Shown here piece after piece: positions 54,560 through 61,591 of a DNA stretch of 64,000 nt. The notes beneath the pieces are model-generated. The model searched no databases and had not been told where the DNA came from. It saw only the letters and a list, made by a program, of their open reading frames with translations. The stretch's first letter is position 1; each line of letters starts with the position of its first letter. This DNA comes from Candidatus Flemingiibacterium sp. (GTDB taxonomy: Bacteria > Bacillota > Clostridia > Oscillospirales > CAG-272): the NCBI GenBank assembly GCA_045586505.1, contig JAZNAL010000013.1, forward strand, positions 49,804 to 113,803, in the 5' to 3' direction. Position numbers and translations under genes: made by a program.

Positions 54560-54634
54560 TGGTGACCCGTACGGGAATCGAACCCATGTTTCCGCCTTGA
54601 GAGGGCGGCGTCTTAGCCGCTTGACCAACAGGCC
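54560..54634 (-). tRNA. tRNA-Glu (anticodon CUC)
   Basis: rc = GGCCTGTTGGTCAAGCGGCTAAGACGCCGCCCTCTCAAGGCGGAAACATGGGTTCGATTCCCGTACGGGTCACCA. It forms a cloverleaf with anticodon loop CUCUCAA and an encoded CCA. It has its own TTGACA-17-TATAAT promoter (rc 54681-54653). Confidence 0.85.
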
Positions 54635-54879
54635 GATCATCAGAACACGAATATTATATCATATCCCATTTTATTTGTCAATATCTTTTTGAAAAAAACT
54701 TAAAATATTTTTATTTAATCAGCAGCATTGTAGATATGCTATATCGGCAGTTATTCCTCAAAGCTCCAGTACGCCCATATTCAAGGTGTTTATATCATGC
54801 GACAGCGGTTGTCAAGGGGGATGGCAAACATCACTTAAAAAGGAATCGCCTTTGTCAAAGGACAAAGGCGATTCCTTTT

Positions 54880-54953
54880 TGGCTGGGGATGAGGGGTTCG
54901 AACCCCCACAAACAGAGTCAGAGTCTGTCGTGCTACCGTTACACAAATCCCCA
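54880..54953 (-). tRNA. tRNA-Gln (anticodon CUG)
   Basis: rc = TGGGGATTTGTGTAACGGTAGCACGACAGACTCTGACTCTGTTTGTGGGGGTTCGAACCCCTCATCCCCAGCCA. The acceptor stem TGGGGAT/ATCCCCA is perfect and the anticodon loop is CUCUGAC. A TTGACA-17-(TGg)TATAAT promoter lies upstream on the minus strand. A terminator hairpin at 54841-54876 lies downstream. Confidence 0.85.
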
Positions 54954-55079
54954 ATGTGATTTATTCAACGGACAATATTATACCACAACATAATGGGTTT
55001 GTCAATAGGTTTTAGAAAATATTTTTCGTTTTTCAGGAGGAAATTTTTTCAAAAATTCTCCAACTTCCCGATAATGTAA

Positions 55080-55108
55080 TTGACATGGCGTCAATTATAT
55101 GTTAAAAT
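55080..55108 (+). promoter_or_regulatory. promoter of the TerB/ATPase/helicase operon
   Basis: TTGACA-17 nt-TAAAAT. Confidence 0.55.
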
Positions 55109-55146
55109 AATATAATAACCAAAACTCGGTCGAAGGAGGCGAAAAT

Positions 55147-56898
55147 ATGAGCGATAAACCGAAAAATCTCAGCGATATCGACAGATTCTGGGATCTTGAT
55201 TCCCTGCTGCCAAAAAAGCGCCCCGTTACACCCTCGGTGCGTTCGGTGAATACCGACACCGTGGAGTTTTCCGTGGGCACGGATGATAACACCCCTGATG
55301 GCGGCGCGGCGATACCGCCGAGGGATTCGAATGCACCCCTTCCCGAGCGCACCTCCCCCCACGATCAGGCACGGCGTCTGAACGAACTGCCCATGCGCAC
55401 ACGTGCGCAGGAGTACCGCTCAAAGCCGCTTGATCCGTATCTTATCTATGAGCCTGAAAACACGCTTATCCGCCGCGTTGAGGTGTCAAAATGGGACTCG
55501 CGGTTCAATTTCTACGAAAACTTTCAGTCCGATGTGAAGCGGCTGTGGTCACGCGCCGCCGTACCTGCCGACCACGTCTCCTTCTTCTCATATGTGCCGC
55601 AGTATTCCCAGCTTAAATACGCTCAACTCAAATGGTACCTCTGGTGGCGCGAAAATGTACGGCGCGGTACGTACCTACGTACCGATTTCTGCTACATCCT
55701 TTTATACATCTACGAGATCATCAACTGCCCCGACCTGATAACGCCCGAAAAGGGGCTCGAGCTTCTCTGCGACATCTGGACAAACTACCGCGGCGAACAC
55801 CGCAGGATCGACAGCTATATGTGCGACTGGCTGTGCGACTACTGTCTTATCAATAAGCTCCCCTGTCCCGCAAATCGCCTTGAACCCATAATCGGTGACA
55901 TCGTGGCGGCGGCAAATTTCAAGGAGTTCTACATCGGTTCGGGGAAGGGCGACGTTGCTGCAAGCATTCTCGCCTATTCCTCCACCTACGACTGGCGTAA
56001 AAGCCGCTATGTTACGAGCGAAAACATGGAGCTTTTCGCGTTACACATACGCGGCGCATTTGAAAAAGCGTACCGCGAGGTGCTCTCGGAAAAGGACGAC
56101 AGCTTCGCTAAGGAGTTCCGCGTGGAACGCAGTGCATACGACGGCGCGCTTTGTGTATATAATATGAAGCGGACGATCACGGTGGAATATGCATCTTACA
56201 CACGCTCGCCGAAGTTCCGTTTCGTGGTGACTGATATAATCAAATACAGCGAAAACCGCATCCGCATGGCGCTTGGCGTCAAATCCCGTCTCAAGGTGGA
56301 CTCGCTCGGAGATAAATTAAAGGCGTGCCTTGATGAATATTTCGATACACACCTCCCCCTTCCGAAAAAGAGCCGCGCATCAAAATCCGCGGCGATCCTG
56401 CCGGAGGTAAACGAATACGACAAGCTCTATGAGCCGACCTCTACCACGCTTTCTCTTGAAAACGCGCTCAGGATCGAACAAAGCTCCTGGAGCACCACCG
56501 ACATACTCACCTCGGCGTTTGAGGAATCTTCGGAGCAAGCACCATCGAAGCCTGTACCCAAAGCCGTGCCGGAGCCCATCCCGGAACCGAGCTCTCAACA
56601 AAAGTCCATCCCCGAGACGCTTTCTTACACCGAAACGCCGGAAGGTACCGACGAGTTTGAGGGATTTGTCGCTTCTCTTGACGGCATCGCCCGCGAAGCG
56701 CTGACACAGCTAGCAAACGGCGATAGTGCCGCGCTGGCAAAGGCTGCATCGACGGCGGGCATACTTGCAGATGCCCTGGCAGACAAAATCAACGAAGCAG
56801 CGTTCGATATCATCGGCGACAGCGTGATCGAACCACACGTCGGCGGATATCGGCTCATTTCCGATTACGAAGGAGATCTTGTAAAATGGCTGAAATGA
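55147..56898 (+). CDS. TerB-N / TerB-C domain protein (Shango SngA-like)
   Basis: FFSYVPQYSQLKYAQLKWYLWWRENVRRGTYLRTDFCYILLYIYEIIN matches the TerB_N signature. The C-terminal ..ILADALADKINEAAFDIIGDSVIE matches TerB_C. Confidence 0.7.
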   Translation: MSDKPKNLSDIDRFWDLDSLLPKKRPVTPSVRSVNTDTVEFSVGTDDNTPDGGAAIPPRDSNAPLPERTSPHDQARRLNELPMRTRAQEYRSKPLDPYLIYEPENTLIRRVEVSKWDSRFNFYENFQSDVKRLWSRAAVPADHVSFFSYVPQYSQLKYAQLKWYLWWRENVRRGTYLRTDFCYILLYIYEIINCPDLITPEKGLELLCDIWTNYRGEHRRIDSYMCDWLCDYCLINKLPCPANRLEPIIGDIVAAANFKEFYIGSGKGDVAASILAYSSTYDWRKSRYVTSENMELFALHIRGAFEKAYREVLSEKDDSFAKEFRVERSAYDGALCVYNMKRTITVEYASYTRSPKFRFVVTDIIKYSENRIRMALGVKSRLKVDSLGDKLKACLDEYFDTHLPLPKKSRASKSAAILPEVNEYDKLYEPTSTTLSLENALRIEQSSWSTTDILTSAFEESSEQAPSKPVPKAVPEPIPEPSSQQKSIPETLSYTETPEGTDEFEGFVASLDGIAREALTQLANGDSAALAKAASTAGILADALADKINEAAFDIIGDSVIEPHVGGYRLISDYEGDLVKWLK

Positions 56899-58256
56899 CA
56901 CGAAAGATACCAAAACGAATACTCACGGGACTGCTCTCGTCAATCTCGGCGGGTGTAGTGCCGCGTATGGGTGCGCCCTATATCGCCATAGGACGAAACG
57001 AGGAGATCGAAGCGCTGCTCTCTGATCTCGAAGCCGTCAACGACGGCGGCGGTACCATGCGCTTTATCATAGGTAAATACGGAAGCGGCAAGAGCTTCCT
57101 TATCCAGCTCGTACGCGGCTTTTCCATAGAGCGCGGCTTCATCACCGCCGATGCGGATCTGTCCCCTGAACGCCGTATCTGCGGTGCAAAGGGTACGGGT
57201 ATTGCAACCTACCGCGAGCTGATACGCAACCTCGCCTCAAAATCCTCACCTGACGGCGGTGCACTGCAGCAGATAATCGCGAAATGGCTGTCAGATCTGC
57301 AGTCATCGGTGGCGGCGGAGGGGCACGAGATTGGCTCAGATGCGTTCCTGCGTGAGCTGACCTCCCGAATCTATTCACAGACCCGCGAGCTCGAAGCGCA
57401 GATTGGCGGCTTCGATTTTGCCACGGTGCTTACACAGTATTACAAAGCGTACATGGACGGCGACGAGGAGAAAAAGTCCGCCTGTATGCGATGGCTTCGC
57501 GGTGAATACTCCACTAAGACTGAGGCGCGCAATGCTATCGGTGTATCTCTCGGAGGTATCATCGACGATGACAACTGGTACGAGTATATAAAGCTTTTTG
57601 CGGTATTTTTCAGAAAGCTCGGCTACCGCGGATTTGTGGTATTCATCGACGAGTGTGTGAATCTTTATAAGATCGCCAACCGCATCTCACGCGAGAACAA
57701 CTACGAAAAGCTACTGTCCATGTTCAACGACACCTTGCAGGGCAAAGCCGAGGGGCTTGCGCTGATCTTCGGCGGCACACCGCAGTTTTTGGAGGACACC
57801 CGCCGCGGCCTGTTCTCCTATGAAGCACTCCGCAGCCGACTGTCCGACGGACAGTTTCAAAAGGACGGCTTCAAAAACCTGATCGGCCCCGTGATCCGTC
57901 TTCGCAGACTGTCCGATGATGAGCTGTATGCGCTGATTGCACGCATCACGGGTCTGCACGCCCAGAATTACGTCTGGGAGCCGCGGGTGACAAACGAGGA
58001 TATGCTGACATTTCTTAAGATCTGCCTTGACCGTGCGGGTGCTGACACCATGATAACCCCCCGTGAGATCATCCGCGACTATATAACTCTTTTGAACATC
58101 CTCCTGCAGAATCCCGACACCACGTTTACCGATGTGGTGGGCAGCGGAGTCGTCAAGCTCTCTCACGGCGAGGATGAGGAGAATGCTATTATCGTAGACG
58201 AAGGCGGCAGACCGCAGGTACGGACCGATTTTTCGGCGGAAGACATCGAATTATAA
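56886..58256 (+). CDS. DUF2791/BrxD-like P-loop ATPase (Shango-like ATPase component)
   Basis: GVVPRMGAPYIAIGRNEEIEAL....FIIGKYGSGKSFL (Walker A) and VVFIDEC (Walker B). It overlaps the TerB gene by 13 nt. Confidence 0.65.
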   Translation: MAEMTRKIPKRILTGLLSSISAGVVPRMGAPYIAIGRNEEIEALLSDLEAVNDGGGTMRFIIGKYGSGKSFLIQLVRGFSIERGFITADADLSPERRICGAKGTGIATYRELIRNLASKSSPDGGALQQIIAKWLSDLQSSVAAEGHEIGSDAFLRELTSRIYSQTRELEAQIGGFDFATVLTQYYKAYMDGDEEKKSACMRWLRGEYSTKTEARNAIGVSLGGIIDDDNWYEYIKLFAVFFRKLGYRGFVVFIDECVNLYKIANRISRENNYEKLLSMFNDTLQGKAEGLALIFGGTPQFLEDTRRGLFSYEALRSRLSDGQFQKDGFKNLIGPVIRLRRLSDDELYALIARITGLHAQNYVWEPRVTNEDMLTFLKICLDRAGADTMITPREIIRDYITLLNILLQNPDTTFTDVVGSGVVKLSHGEDEENAIIVDEGGRPQVRTDFSAEDIEL

Positions 58257-58277
58257 AATATGAGGAGATAAAAAGTC

Positions 58278-58748
58278 ATGAACACGGCAGTAGAATACAT
58301 GAACGCGCGCGGCTACGGCGAGCGTGTCCGCATACTCACCGAATCCACCGCCACCGTAGCTCTTGCCGCACAGGCACTTGGTGTCACGGAGGGCGAGATC
58401 GCGAAAACGCTTTCGTTTATGCTCGGCGGCGCTCCCATACTCATCGTTATGGCGGGCGATGTCAAGACCGACAACCATAAGTACAAGGCAAAATTCTGCA
58501 CTAAAGCGAAAATGCTCACACCCGACGACACGGTGGAGCTGATCGGTCATGCCGTCGGTGGCGTTTGCCCCTTTGGCATCAAGGACGGCGTCACGGTATA
58601 CCTCGACGAATCGCTGAAGCGCTTCGAGCTTGTCTTTGCGGCGTGCGGCGCTATCGACACCGTCATCGGGCTCAGCATTCCCGAGCTTGAAACTCTGTCG
58701 GGGTATGCCTGTTGGGTGGATGTTACAAAGCCCCACGAGGCGGTGTGA
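58278..58748 (+). CDS. YbaK/EbsC-type aminoacyl-tRNA trans-editing (deacylase) domain protein
   Basis: 156 aa. ..EIAKTLSFMLGGAPILIVMAGDVKTDNHKYK....IGHAVGGVCPFG fits the pattern of the YbaK/ProX family. Its stop is 4 nt before the helicase start. Confidence 0.7.
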   Translation: MNTAVEYMNARGYGERVRILTESTATVALAAQALGVTEGEIAKTLSFMLGGAPILIVMAGDVKTDNHKYKAKFCTKAKMLTPDDTVELIGHAVGGVCPFGIKDGVTVYLDESLKRFELVFAACGAIDTVIGLSIPELETLSGYACWVDVTKPHEAV

Positions 58749-58752
58749 GAAA

Positions 58753-61044
58753 ATGGCAGACAACGAAATCTTCTACCGGTTCTCCCCGTTCATACAGGAT
58801 TTCATTTACCGAAACGGCTGGCAGGATCTGCGCGCGGTGCAGCTTGCGGCGGCACGGGTGATATTCGATACAAACAAGAATCTGCTTATTACCTCCTCCA
58901 CTGCATCCGGTAAGACGGAGGCGGCATTCTTCCCGATCATCTCGCAGATGTATGAGGATATGCCGAAGAGCATTGGTACGTTGTATATCGCGCCGCTGAA
59001 AAGTCTAATCAACGACCAGTTTTCGCGTCTTGACGAGCTGCTTGATCTGACGGGTATCCCCGTGTTCCATTGGCATGGCGACGTTGCGCAGTCGCACAAA
59101 TCCAAGCTTCTGAAGGATCCCCGCGGTATTCTGCAGATCACCCCCGAATCCCTTGAAAGTATGCTCATGAACCGCTCCAACGACCTCGTGCGCCTGTTCG
59201 GCGACCTTAGGTATGTGGTCATCGACGAAATACACACTCTGACGGGTACTGACCGCGGCAATCAGATCATCTGTCAGCTCGTACGCCTTGCAAGGCTCAT
59301 CGGTCATACGCCGAGGCGTATCGGGCTTTCCGCCACCATCGGTGACGCATCCCTTGCGGCAGAATGGCTTGGCGGCGGCACGGATGTTGAGACTGTAGTG
59401 CCGGAGATAAACGAGGGCAAGACCAAATGGCGGCTCGGCATGGAGCATTTCTATATCCAAGGCGAGGATCTCGATCAAAGCCACGACTTCCAGGGTCAGG
59501 ACATAAAAAAAGAGCCCGAATCCACGGAGCCCTTGCAGGGTGAAGCGTCTATAGACGAGCCGTCTCACGGCAAGGTTGAGATCGATCCCGGTTACGAGTA
59601 CATCTACGACTGCGTCAAAAACAAAAAAGCGATCATCTTCTCAAACTCCCGCGAGGAGACCGAGTATGTGACCGCCACCATGCGTCAGATTGCCGATAAC
59701 CGTCATGAGACGGACAATTTCCTCATCCATCACGGCAACCTGTCCGCTTCAATTCGCGAGGAAGCCGAGTCCAAGATGAAAAACGACGAGATGAAGTGCG
59801 TCACCTGCGCCACCGTTACAATGGAGCTTGGAATCGACATCGGACGGCTTGAGCGCATTATACAGAACGATGCGCCGAACTCCGTGTCAAGCTTTCTGCA
59901 AAGACTTGGACGCTCGGGCAGACGCGGTACGCCGCCGGAAATGATGATGGTATTCCGAGAGGAAAATCCGCTTCCCAATACTCCGCTTCCACAGCTTATT
60001 CCGTGGGGATTTCTCCGCGCCATTGCTATTGTGCAGCTGTATATTGAAGAAAAATTCATCGAACCGCCATTTACCAAAAAGCTCCCCTTCAGCCTTGCAT
60101 TCCAGCAGACTCTTTCTACCCTTGCGTCCTCGGGCGAGCTGACGCCGAAGCGTCTCGCCGAGCGCATACTGACGCTTCCTGCATTTAAAAATATCGACAA
60201 GGAAGATTACCGCACACTGTTGCTCAGCATGCTGCAGAACGACTTTTTGGAGCTGACCGAGGAAAAAGGTCTGATAGTGGGCTTAAAGGGCGAGCGACTT
60301 ATAAACAGCTTCAAATTCTACGCCGTGTTCAAGGACAGCGAGGACTACACCGTCCGCTGTGAATCCGACGAGATCGGTACCATCACCACCCCGCCGCCGG
60401 TGGGCGACCGTTTCGCACTTGCGGGACGGGTCTGGGAGGTGGAGGAGCTGGATATTGCGAGAAAGCTCATCTATGTAAAGGCGGTCAAGGGAAAGATGGA
60501 GGTCTCTTGGCCCGGCGACTACGGCGAGATACACACAAAGATTCTGGAGCGTATGCGCCGAATACTGTACGAGGATACCGTTTATCCCTACTTAAAGCCA
60601 AATGCCCGCCATCGCCTTGAGGTCGTACGAAACCTTGCCCGCAATACCGGAATGCTGTCCCATTCGCTGGTGCCGCTTGGCGGCTACACCTGGTGTCTGT
60701 TCCCTTGGCTTGGTACTCGCTCTTTCAGAACACTTCGCAAATTCATCATGCAGAACGCCGCGCGCTTCAAGATCACCAACCTCGAATTTGAGGGCTGTTA
60801 CTACATGATGTTCAAAATGGAAAATGCGAGCGACTACGCCCTCATCAAAGGTCTTTGCGACATTATTGAGCGTGAGGGCATCGACAAGTCAAAGCTGGTG
60901 AATGCAAACGAAATGCCAGTGTTCGAAAAATACGACGACTATATACCCGCCGAGCTGCTCCGAAGGCAATACGCTGCGGACAAGCTCCGCACAGATGAAA
61001 TTAAACTGCGTCTGCCGCAGATACTCTCCGAGTACGAGGACTAA
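58753..61044 (+). CDS. DEAD/DEAH-box (Lhr/BrxHI-like) helicase (Shango-like helicase component)
   Basis: Q-motif region LRAVQ, motif I SSTASGKTEAAF, motif II VVIDEIH, SAT, and motif VI QRLGRSGRRG, plus a long C-terminal extension. Confidence 0.8.
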   Translation: MADNEIFYRFSPFIQDFIYRNGWQDLRAVQLAAARVIFDTNKNLLITSSTASGKTEAAFFPIISQMYEDMPKSIGTLYIAPLKSLINDQFSRLDELLDLTGIPVFHWHGDVAQSHKSKLLKDPRGILQITPESLESMLMNRSNDLVRLFGDLRYVVIDEIHTLTGTDRGNQIICQLVRLARLIGHTPRRIGLSATIGDASLAAEWLGGGTDVETVVPEINEGKTKWRLGMEHFYIQGEDLDQSHDFQGQDIKKEPESTEPLQGEASIDEPSHGKVEIDPGYEYIYDCVKNKKAIIFSNSREETEYVTATMRQIADNRHETDNFLIHHGNLSASIREEAESKMKNDEMKCVTCATVTMELGIDIGRLERIIQNDAPNSVSSFLQRLGRSGRRGTPPEMMMVFREENPLPNTPLPQLIPWGFLRAIAIVQLYIEEKFIEPPFTKKLPFSLAFQQTLSTLASSGELTPKRLAERILTLPAFKNIDKEDYRTLLLSMLQNDFLELTEEKGLIVGLKGERLINSFKFYAVFKDSEDYTVRCESDEIGTITTPPPVGDRFALAGRVWEVEELDIARKLIYVKAVKGKMEVSWPGDYGEIHTKILERMRRILYEDTVYPYLKPNARHRLEVVRNLARNTGMLSHSLVPLGGYTWCLFPWLGTRSFRTLRKFIMQNAARFKITNLEFEGCYYMMFKMENASDYALIKGLCDIIEREGIDKSKLVNANEMPVFEKYDDYIPAELLRRQYAADKLRTDEIKLRLPQILSEYED

Positions 61045-61286
61045 CCCCGTCCCACGGACAGGTCACACACCACAGCACCGCCCACTATAAGAAGAAGTGA
61101 CATCAGTGCGTGCTCAAGTTCGGCATATAAGAGCGGATACAGCCGCGCCGCGTCATACGCCTCAAGTGATGCAGTGGTAAACGCTATGTATATAAGTGCG
61201 GCGGCGACAAGCGGCAGTCCGCAGTTAAGTATCATCAGAGCGGCTCTGGAGGGGCATGTTTTTTTTAACGGTTTCTTTGTTTTCAT
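61041..61286 (-). CDS. small hypothetical membrane protein
   Basis: 81 aa with two hydrophobic helices. Convergent with the helicase gene. Confidence 0.4.
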   Translation of the reverse strand: MKTKKPLKKTCPSRAALMILNCGLPLVAAALIYIAFTTASLEAYDAARLYPLLYAELEHALMSLLLIVGGAVVCDLSVGRG

Positions 61287-61591
61287 TGACTTCTCCTCTG
61301 CTTTTCTGCATCCATTATACCATATGAGGAGTCGAAAGTCATCAATCGCTTTTTGGGAGCAGCCCCTGTCTTAACTTGCAGAGGAAGCATTATGAAAACG
61401 ATACCCATTATCTGAAAAAACCGTAAATAATGTCGCCGAAATGTGCCGCTCGAAGGTGCATTTGATAAGCTCGTAATACATGAATTGTAAGGAGAATCGC
61501 TACGGAAAACTCAAGGATAGGAGTATCAAGCGCCTGTTTCTATCCCGATGAAACGCTTGACTCCATAAAAAGATGCATCGGACTCGGGTTT

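What the first reader, a model, noticed from the sequence alone, without database searches (positions are those of the whole stretch)
55147..61044. Shango-like TerB/ATPase/helicase operon with an embedded YbaK-type aminoacyl-tRNA deacylase gene
The TerB_N+TerB_C protein, the DUF2791/BrxD-like P-loop ATPase and the Lhr/BrxHI-like DEAD-box helicase form the three-gene set described as the Shango anti-phage system. The same set was reported earlier as a TerB-associated DNA-processing cluster.

Here a 156-aa YbaK/EbsC-family gene is wedged between the ATPase and the helicase. It starts 21 nt after the ATPase stop and ends 4 nt before the helicase start, so it is almost certainly co-transcribed. 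A trans-editing tRNA deacylase domain inside such an operon is not part of the canonical description as I know it. It hints at a link to aminoacyl-tRNA or an aminoacylated or nucleotide-linked small molecule. Unlike the neighbouring islet, this operon has host-like GC content.
Basis: partly seen in the sequence, partly recalled or inferred. Interest (0 to 1): 0.6.

Follow-up and report, generated by a model that had tools for sequence, protein, structure and literature searches.

The report
Shango operon carrying a tRNA-deacylase passenger
This is a genuine copy of the known three-gene Shango anti-phage system that, in one lineage of uncultured gut Clostridia, has carried an intact aminoacyl-tRNA proofreading gene between its second and third genes for a long time; the extra gene is most likely co-transcribed cargo, because the same junction holds other unrelated small genes in related operons.

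Summary
SngA (55147-56898), SngB (56886-58256), a 156-aa tRNA_edit gene (58278-58748) and SngC (58753-61044) lie on one strand, with a 21-nt and a 4-nt gap around the extra gene. PADLOC profiles call the three large genes Shango (E 4e-48, 1e-168, 1e-242).

The extra protein belongs to the YbaK superfamily but is not YbaK proper. It falls below the NCBIfam YbaK cut-off. Its model is closest to Thermus ProX (2z0k/2cx5, the ProXp-x type; TM 0.86).

The insertion is not a one-off. All 8 members of one well-supported clade (at least 72% identity) that have readable context sit between sngB and sngC, at a syntenic chromosomal site. dN/dS is 0.11-0.14 and every family-conserved residue is kept.

It is a single capture, however. 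No YbaK-family gene was found at any of 158 other Shango-type (SngB) loci. At the same junction, other lineages carry unrelated genes: a methyltransferase, two different GNATs, an ArsC-like gene, DUF3795, GH39 and a kinase-like gene.

My best reading, at about 0.6, is a stably inherited, co-transcribed passenger deacylase. A real accessory role in defence stays possible at about 0.3.

The parts
55080..55108 (+). Promoter-like site of the operon (TTGACA-17-TAAAAT with TG extension), 39 nt upstream of the sngA ATG; a GAAGGAGG ribosome-binding site lies at 55133-55140
   Evidence: Consensus scan, 11 of 12 matches; sequence read directly. Function inferred, not shown.
55147..56898 (+). sngA: 583-aa TerB_N + TerB_C protein, the fastest-evolving subunit
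   Evidence: Pfam TerB_N 4e-18 and TerB_C 3e-10; PADLOC SngA 4.1e-48; only 52-85% identical among clade members.
56886..58256 (+). sngB: 456-aa BrxC/BrxD-type (DUF2791) P-loop ATPase; overlaps sngA by 13 nt
   Evidence: Pfam BrxC_BrxD 6e-155; PADLOC SngB 1.2e-168, against BrxD 4e-48; the GKYGSGKSF Walker A motif is present.
58278..58748 (+). Inserted 156-aa ProXp-x-like free-standing aminoacyl-tRNA editing (tRNA_edit / INS-superfamily) gene
   Evidence: PF04073 3.4e-23. Below the TIGR00011 YbaK cut-off, 49 against 153 bits. No PADLOC hit. PDB 1wdv and 2cx5 at E 1e-13. AF2 model pLDDT 85.6; best fold match 2z0k/2cx5 at TM 0.86. K43-T-L, G90-H91, G94-G-V-C-P-F99 and D110 are conserved. dN/dS 0.11-0.14.
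58753..61044 (+). sngC: 763-aa DEAD/DEAH Lhr/BrxHI-like helicase, starting 4 nt after the inserted gene's stop
   Evidence: Pfam DEAD 1.6e-27 and Helicase_C 4e-18; PADLOC SngC 1e-242, against BrxHI 2e-125.
61243..61255 (+). Weak terminator-like hairpin plus T-run downstream of sngC
   Evidence: Consensus scan only. The number of such sites in the region equals the chance expectation, so this is tentative.

Best explanation
The locus is a bona fide Shango (SngA-SngB-SngC) anti-phage operon. It is fixed at one chromosomal site in a lineage of uncultured gut and rumen Clostridia, including a MAG labelled Candidatus Flemingiibacterium. A free-standing ProXp-x-like aminoacyl-tRNA deacylase gene was captured once, at the sngB-sngC junction, in the ancestor of this lineage. 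It has since been inherited together with the operon, is read from the operon's promoter, and may be translationally coupled to sngC. Purifying selection has kept its active site intact. Most likely it does what its family does elsewhere: it hydrolyses mischarged aminoacyl-tRNAs. By analogy with ProXp-x, the substrates would be small non-cognate residues such as alpha-aminobutyrate or alanine. On this reading it rides in the operon as cargo and is not a working part of the defence mechanism.

Shown: the gene identities, the spacing, the conservation, the single origin, the selection, and the variable content of the junction. Inferred: co-transcription, the deacylase activity and its substrates, and the independence from Shango function.
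For: (1) PADLOC SngA, SngB and SngC are each the best hit by a wide margin.
(2) All 8 members of the at-least-72%-identity clade that have readable flanks lie between sngB and sngC: the window, L005, L006, L007, L164, L166, L280 and L284. Six loci share downstream genes: the xylose-isomerase-like TIM barrel in all six, GH32 in every one but the window, and NrdD where the flank reaches it (the window and L166).
(3) The clade is monophyletic with SH-aLRT 100. Its sister sequences, P0058 next to tsaD and P0037, are not in Shango.
(4) dN/dS is 0.11-0.14 with dS above 1 in four of five pairs. All 63 family-conserved positions are retained and none is relaxed.
(5) No YbaK-family gene was found at 78 Shango-type loci sampled across the order or at 80 metagenomic SngB loci.
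(6) The same junction holds unrelated genes elsewhere: a SAM methyltransferase (L117), GH39 (L213, L215), GNAT (L269), an ArsC/Spx-like gene (L251), a P-loop kinase-like gene (L249) and DUF3795 (L005, behind the deacylase). In the same-genus genome G463 an unrelated GNAT sits directly in front of sngC. The median sngB-sngC gap in 120 other loci is 77 nt.
(7) Outside Shango the family sits at the ends of unrelated operons, for example after iolE/iolA/iolG-like genes in 38 of 72 loci.
(8) Each of the four genomes has only this one copy of the subfamily. G463, which lacks the embedded copy, has a 63%-identical copy elsewhere.
(9) Published Shango is a three-gene system that is active without such a gene (PMC10250203; bioRxiv 10.1101/2022.05.11.491447).
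Against: The stem leading to the embedded clade is long: 0.48 substitutions per site, against a 95th percentile of 0.26 for internal branches. The clade has 19 fixed clade-specific substitutions. These include P121A and S125A, which flank the invariant A-C-G motif. This pattern could mark a functional shift after capture.

The subfamily was found in only 36 of 120 genomes searched in the same family, so essentiality cannot explain its long retention in the operon. The very tight spacing (21 nt and 4 nt here; a 4-nt overlap with sngB in L166 and L284) has been kept over deep divergence.

The G463 locus is split over two contigs and may be misassembled.
Confidence: 0.6

Rival explanations
1. The deacylase is a lineage-specific functional accessory of Shango. 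After capture it was adapted to act with SngABC. It could tune or gate the system, counter a phage factor that acts on aminoacyl-tRNA, or serve as an effector that strips aminoacyl-tRNAs or an aminoacylated nucleotide during infection.
For: Co-inheritance with Shango in 8 of 8 clade members. Spacing that suggests translational coupling. A long stem branch and 19 clade-specific fixed substitutions, two of them next to the conserved A-C-G loop. Purifying selection comparable to that on SngA and SngB. The subfamily is dispensable in most relatives, so its retention needs some benefit. The other junction genes are also small modifying enzymes (GNAT, methyltransferase, kinase-like), which could mean the junction is a true accessory slot.
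Against: 158 other Shango-type loci lack any such gene, and published Shango works as three genes. The junction contents are functionally unrelated and include a GH39 glycosidase. All family-conserved residues are kept, which suggests the ancestral activity is unchanged. There is no PADLOC model hit for the deacylase, and no defence context for its non-Shango relatives. A full-text search found no paper linking YbaK-family proteins to TerB systems or phage defence.
Confidence: 0.3
2. The gene is a decaying remnant or a chance ORF with no function, tolerated between two defence genes.
For: It is small, and it is absent from most Shango operons.
Against: The full-length ORF is kept in every clade member. 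dN/dS is 0.11-0.14 with saturated dS. All catalytic and family-conserved residues are intact. A strong ribosome-binding site precedes it. The model is a confident YbaK-fold prediction.
Confidence: 0.02
3. The three large genes are not a defence system here. They would be a vertically inherited housekeeping DNA-processing module of these Clostridia, and the deacylase one of several ordinary genes within a core operon.
For: SngB is found in 79 of 401 genomes of the order, and in more than half of three families. The locus is syntenic among core metabolic genes. It has host-like GC. Helicase-less SngAB pairs sit next to alaS, ruvCAB and tsaC-like genes in 25 loci.
Against: The profile matches to experimentally validated Shango proteins are very strong. 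Distribution is still patchy within families. SngA evolves fast, as expected of a defence sensor. The locus abuts an AT-rich islet that earlier notes of this scan read as defence genes.
Confidence: 0.08

Closest known systems
Shango (SngA/SngB/SngC) anti-phage system of E. coli and Pseudomonas aeruginosa PA14 (Millman et al. 2022, bioRxiv 10.1101/2022.05.11.491447; Johnson et al. 2023, PMC10250203)
   Same: The same three proteins in the same order, A-B-C: a TerB_N/TerB_C protein, a BrxD-like DUF2791 ATPase and an Lhr/BrxHI-like DEAD-box helicase. Each gives its best PADLOC hit to the Sng model.
   Different: A fourth gene, a tRNA_edit deacylase, sits between sngB and sngC. The locus is chromosomally fixed and syntenic among core genes, not in a mobile island. 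The host is an uncultured gut Clostridia lineage.
ProXp-x / Thermus thermophilus ProX TTHA1699 (PDB 2cx5, 2z0k, 2z0x) and Aeropyrum pernix APE2540 (1wdv), free-standing INS-superfamily trans-editing domains
   Same: A single-domain protein of about 155 aa with the same fold (TM 0.85-0.86, about 31% identity). It has the conserved KTL lysine and the GGVxPxG loop. According to the review PMC11295145, ProXp-x deacylates Abu-tRNAs and, more weakly, Ala-tRNAPro.
   Different: Identity is only about 30%. The Clostridia subfamily has its own signature (GH-AVGGVCPF, KAKML), and its activity and tRNA preference are untested. It could also belong to one of the INS-superfamily families of unknown function (ProXp-7, -8 or -9).
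YbaK (Cys-tRNAPro deacylase; H. influenzae HI1434, PDB 1dbu; TIGR00011)
   Same: The same superfamily and fold (TM 0.79).
   Different: 18% identity. It scores 49 bits against the 153-bit equivalog cut-off. The genome has a separate canonical YbaK (L001, FKTLV motif) and a third tRNA_edit gene (L002).
FthB of Streptomyces cattleya, a ProXp-ST1-related deacylase that hydrolyses fluorothreonyl-tRNA (as cited in PMC11295145)
   Same: It is a precedent for an INS-superfamily deacylase with a specialised protective substrate. That fthB lies in a specialised gene cluster is from my own knowledge, not from a tool result.
   Different: It belongs to a different INS family and sits in a biosynthetic self-resistance context, not a phage-defence operon. 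No toxic amino-acid pathway is evident here.

Membership tests
Shango (SngABC) | SngA: a protein with TerB_N and TerB_C domains matching the SngA profile | tested here: met
   Pfam TerB_N 4e-18 and TerB_C 3e-10; PADLOC SngA 4.1e-48 over profile positions 81-527 of 528.
Shango (SngABC) | SngB: a DUF2791/BrxC_BrxD P-loop ATPase matching SngB better than BREX BrxD | tested here: met
   PADLOC SngB 1.2e-168 against BrxD 3.8e-48. It is below the NCBIfam BREX_BrxD cut-off, 162 against 350 bits.
Shango (SngABC) | SngC: a DEAD/DEAH helicase matching SngC better than BrxHI | tested here: met
   PADLOC SngC 1e-242 against BrxHI 1.7e-125.
Shango (SngABC) | Three genes co-directional and contiguous in one operon | tested here: inconclusive
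   The genes are co-directional and tightly packed, but one foreign gene separates sngB from sngC. Whether the locus rules of PADLOC or DefenseFinder tolerate one intervening gene could not be run here.
Shango (SngABC) | Protection against phage infection | not testable with these tools
   This needs cloning and phage challenge.
YbaK proper (Cys-tRNAPro deacylase, TIGR00011 / PRK10670) | Score above the curated equivalog cut-off | tested here: not met
   49.1 bits against 153.25 for TIGR00011, and 20.8 against 243 for PRK10670.
INS / YbaK superfamily (Pfam tRNA_edit, PF04073) | Domain match above the gathering score, the YbaK fold, and the conserved catalytic-site lysine and GxxxP-type loop | tested here: met
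   82.5 bits against a 25.5-bit cut-off. Fold matches to ProX, YbaK and the ProRS INS domain. K43 and G94-G-V-C-P-F99 are invariant in the alignment of 23 homologues and at 99-100% across the 163 family sequences compared.
ProXp-x | Closest to the family representative 2cx5; deacylates Abu-tRNA with a preference for A73 | tested here: inconclusive
   The best sequence and fold hits are 2cx5 and 2z0k, but identity is about 31%. No family profile was available and the activity is untestable here.

The most novel reading that the evidence does not exclude
The sngB-sngC junction of Shango is a genuine accessory slot. In different lineages it recruits small modifying enzymes that change what the system senses or does: a deacylase here, and GNATs, a methyltransferase, a kinase-like protein and an ArsC-like protein elsewhere. 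In this lineage an adapted ProXp-x-like deacylase would tie a TerB/ATPase/helicase defence to the aminoacyl-tRNA pool. It could hydrolyse aminoacyl-tRNAs or an aminoacylated signal during infection.
Probability: 0.12. Interest if true: 0.75.

Novelty: new variant of a known kind. Interest (0 to 1): 0.33.

Why it matters
Shango's mechanism is unknown, so any conserved fourth gene is a possible handle on it. This work shows the deacylase is a real, long-retained, selected part of the operon in one lineage. It also shows that it is one of several unrelated genes captured at the same junction. That tempers the mechanistic hint and shifts the more interesting question. Why is the sngB-sngC junction of chromosomally fixed Shango operons in gut Clostridia a recurrent landing site for small enzyme genes? 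For annotation, it warns against reading every gene inside a defence operon as a defence component. It also warns that strict three-gene contiguity rules may miss such loci.

Tried and rejected
1. Recurrence of the insertion. I fetched 78 SngB loci from 401 genomes of the same order and 80 metagenomic SngB loci. None has a YbaK-family gene.
2. Viral contigs. A scan with an SngB alignment found no relatives.
3. Sole essential housekeeping copy. This is rejected as a sufficient explanation, because only 36 of 120 family genomes have the subfamily. Each embedded-clade genome does have just this one copy.
4. Mobile-element signatures. No repeats, IS ends or attC-like sites flank the inserted gene, and the spacers of 21 and 4 nt leave no room for them.
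5. GAACN4GTTC does not occur anywhere in the window.
7. Literature. I searched for YbaK with TerB, Shango or defence systems and found nothing relevant.
8. PADLOC on the junction cargo genes. Only a generic methyltransferase-fold hit (mad2) for L117 and a marginal kinase-like hit; nothing for the deacylase, the GNATs, the ArsC-like gene, DUF3795 or GH39.
9. A donor for the captured gene. The 156-aa tree does not resolve one. The nearest outgroups are Oscillospiraceae-type copies at 63-68% identity.
Full report
**Observation.** The region holds four co-directional ORFs on the + strand:
- 55147-56898, 583 aa
- 56886-58256, 456 aa
- 58278-58748, 156 aa
- 58753-61044, 763 aa, counted from the ATG that homologues and the profile support

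There are 21 nt between the ATPase stop and the small gene's ATG, and this spacer contains a GAGGAG ribosome-binding site. There are 4 nt between the small gene's stop and the helicase ATG. sngA and sngB overlap by 13 nt.

A promoter-like site, TTGACA-17-TAAAAT with a TG extension, lies at 55080-55108, followed by a GAAGGAGG ribosome-binding site. Inside the operon the scan found only weak promoter-like matches (9 of 12) and terminator-like hairpins at the number expected by chance; one weak + strand match (58027-58054) lies just upstream of the small gene. Operon GC is 0.53-0.58, against 0.325 for the adjacent islet at 46.5-54.5 kb.

**What the genes are.**
- Pfam gives TerB_N+TerB_C, BrxC_BrxD, tRNA_edit, and DEAD+Helicase_C.
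- PADLOC gives SngA 4e-48, SngB 1e-168 (BrxD only 4e-48) and SngC 1e-242 (BrxHI 2e-125). It gives nothing for the small protein.

The Shango assignment is therefore as firm as sequence can make it.

The small protein scores 49 bits against the 153-bit cut-off of the YbaK equivalog model, so it is not YbaK proper. Its best solved relatives are APE2540 (1wdv) and Thermus ProX (2cx5), both at E about 1e-13. An AlphaFold2 model (pLDDT 85.6) superposes best on 2z0k/2cx5 (TM 0.86, 31% identity). H. influenzae YbaK follows at TM 0.79 and 18% identity. The review PMC11295145 uses 2CX5 as the ProXp-x representative; ProXp-x is a deacylase of alpha-aminobutyryl-tRNAs and, more weakly, of Ala-tRNAPro.

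The genome, a 1.78-Mb MAG about 85% complete, also encodes a canonical YbaK and a third tRNA_edit protein elsewhere.

**Is the adjacency conserved?** A scan of species-representative genomes with the small protein returned 80 loci.
- Only the three closest (90, 77 and 75% identity) carry SngA-SngB-deacylase-SngC. All loci at 64% identity or less lack Shango.
- Four further members of the high-identity group, looked up by exact protein (P0015, P0018, P0027, P0011), are likewise flanked by a BrxC_BrxD gene and a helicase.
- Two proteins just outside the group are not. P0037 (68%) lies next to another tRNA_edit gene and clpP. P0058 (66%, sister group) lies next to tsaD and a GNAT.

In a maximum-likelihood tree of 163 family members, the 35 sequences at 72% identity or more form one clade with SH-aLRT 100. 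Its stem is 0.48 substitutions per site, against a 95th percentile of 0.26 for internal branches.

The loci are syntenic. The six with readable downstream flanks carry the xylose-isomerase-like TIM-barrel gene; all but the window also carry a GH32 gene, which is missing here, and nrdD follows where the flank reaches it (the window and L166). Upstream are ABC2/DUF4340 genes in L164 and L166, and DUF7088/DUF4340 genes in L284.

Identities of the deacylase and of SngB to the window copy fall in step: 90/96, 80/88, 79/86, 77/83 and 75/83%. I conclude there was one capture, then co-inheritance.

**Is it under selection and still an enzyme?** Pairwise dN/dS for the deacylase is 0.11-0.14. dS exceeds 1 in four of five comparisons. 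This lies between SngA (0.08-0.20) and SngB/SngC (0.03-0.10). All 63 positions conserved across the family are retained in the embedded clade, including K43-T-L, G90-H91, G94-G-V-C-P-F99 and D110, and none is relaxed. Nineteen positions are fixed to clade-specific residues. Among them are P121A and S125A, on either side of the invariant A-C-G motif.

**How general is it among Shango loci?** SngB occurs in 79 of 401 sampled genomes of the order. I fetched all 78 non-self loci; none has a YbaK-family gene. An SngB-alignment scan of metagenome contigs gave 80 more loci, again with none. No relatives were found in viral contigs.

In 120 loci with adjacent sngB and sngC the median gap is 77 nt, and ten gaps are 250 nt or more. 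Several of these hold unrelated genes:

| Locus | Gene in the sngB-sngC junction |
|---|---|
| L117 (same family as the window) | class I SAM methyltransferase |
| L213, L215 | GH39 glycosidase |
| L269 | GNAT |
| L251 | ArsC/Spx-like protein |
| L249 | P-loop kinase-like protein |
| L005 | DUF3795, behind the deacylase |

The most telling case is genome G463, of the same GTDB genus as the window. Its SngB is 89% and its SngC 80-85% identical to the window's. An unrelated GNAT, not a deacylase, sits directly in front of its sngC. Its only copy of the deacylase subfamily (63% identity) lies on another contig. The caveat is that its sngB and sngC are on two contigs.

**The family outside Shango.** The 156-aa subfamily is widespread in Clostridia; the search hit its 8000-candidate ceiling at E 1e-10 or better. 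It is patchy, however: 36 of 120 genomes in the window's family have it. In 38 of 72 loci it follows iolE/iolA/iolG-like genes. I saw no defence association. Each of the four embedded-clade genomes has only the embedded copy.

**Interpretation.** The most economical account is that a ProXp-x-like trans-editing gene landed once in a junction that tolerates insertions. The operon concerned is a long-resident, vertically inherited Shango operon. The gene has since been kept because it is useful in its own right and is expressed from the operon promoter. I put this at about 0.6.

A true accessory role, at about 0.3, is kept alive by four points:
- the long stem branch;
- the clade-specific substitutions near the active-site loop;
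- the tight coupling to the flanking genes;
- the subfamily's dispensability elsewhere.

Nothing positive links it to the defence mechanism. Published Shango is a three-gene system (PMC10250203; bioRxiv 10.1101/2022.05.11.491447). No paper in the searched library connects YbaK-family proteins to TerB systems or phage defence.

**Relation to earlier notes of this scan.** One follow-up on another genome (e1-4446971) independently concluded that a foreign gene at the same sngB-sngC junction is cargo. My junction survey agrees and adds seven cargo types. Helicase-less SngAB pairs next to alaS (e1-4082855) also appear in my sample (L115, L116). A LexA-box promoter reported for another Shango (e1-4004895) is not present here.

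**Limits.** All relatives are MAGs or metagenome contigs. Co-transcription, enzymatic activity and anti-phage function are inferred. The surveys are samples, so 'not found in those searched' is the correct reading.

Noticed in passing
L115, L116, L121, L122, L125, L131, L132, L137, L139, L140, L142, L143, L159 and others (25 of 159 SngB loci): SngA-SngB pairs have no helicase gene downstream. They are followed directly by housekeeping genes: alaS, a beta-galactosidase-like gene, a tsaC/Sua5-like gene, or ruvC-ruvA-ruvB. This suggests a helicase-less two-gene form fixed in several lineages.
   Followed up: partly
Order-level survey: SngB is present in 79 of 401 genomes of the order and in more than half of three families (14/25, 19/26, 14/25). 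This is unusually high and clade-structured for a defence system, and fits vertical inheritance at fixed chromosomal sites.
   Followed up: partly
window 61045-61591, compared with L005 9608-11161, L006 9193-10701, L007 9095-10624, L164 and L166: Five of the six loci with readable downstream flanks carry a GH32 glycoside-hydrolase gene of about 500 aa between sngC and the xylose-isomerase-like TIM-barrel gene; the window lacks it. A small minus-strand ORF (61041-61286) is conserved in its place.
   Followed up: partly
L286 (G463 contig C81), the first ~130 nt upstream of the GNAT gene that precedes sngC: Two direct copies of a ~20-nt motif (CGCCGGAGGCGAATTTCAAT and CGCCGGAGGTGGATTTCAAT) lie just before the inserted GNAT gene, at the contig end. 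The SngB contig of the same genome switches to unrelated sequence after residue 386. This could be a rearrangement or a misassembly.
   Followed up: no
L005 6471-6791: In the closest relative, a 106-aa DUF3795 gene (cysteine-rich) is inserted behind the deacylase and before sngC. This is a second cargo gene in the same junction.
   Followed up: partly
L281 337-1381: A 68%-identical relative of the deacylase sits back-to-back with a second, divergently transcribed tRNA_edit gene, next to TSCPD and clpP genes.
   Followed up: no
window 54560-54634 and 54880-54953 (minus strand): tRNA-Glu(CUC) and tRNA-Gln(CUG) lie between the AT-rich defence islet and sngA. Homology with the closest relative, L005, begins at 54879, so tRNA-Gln is shared, whereas tRNA-Glu and the islet upstream showed no match to L005. 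The two tRNA promoters are a 46-nt direct repeat (54650-54695 and 54974-55019, 74% identity).
   Followed up: partly
L008-L084 (38 of 72 loci): Outside Shango, the 156-aa deacylase subfamily is most often the last gene after iolE-, iolA- and iolG-like inositol-catabolism genes, and it is followed by a circularly permuted ATP-grasp / alpha-E / transglutaminase-like trio. I did not work out why a trans-editing gene is tied to an inositol operon.
   Followed up: no
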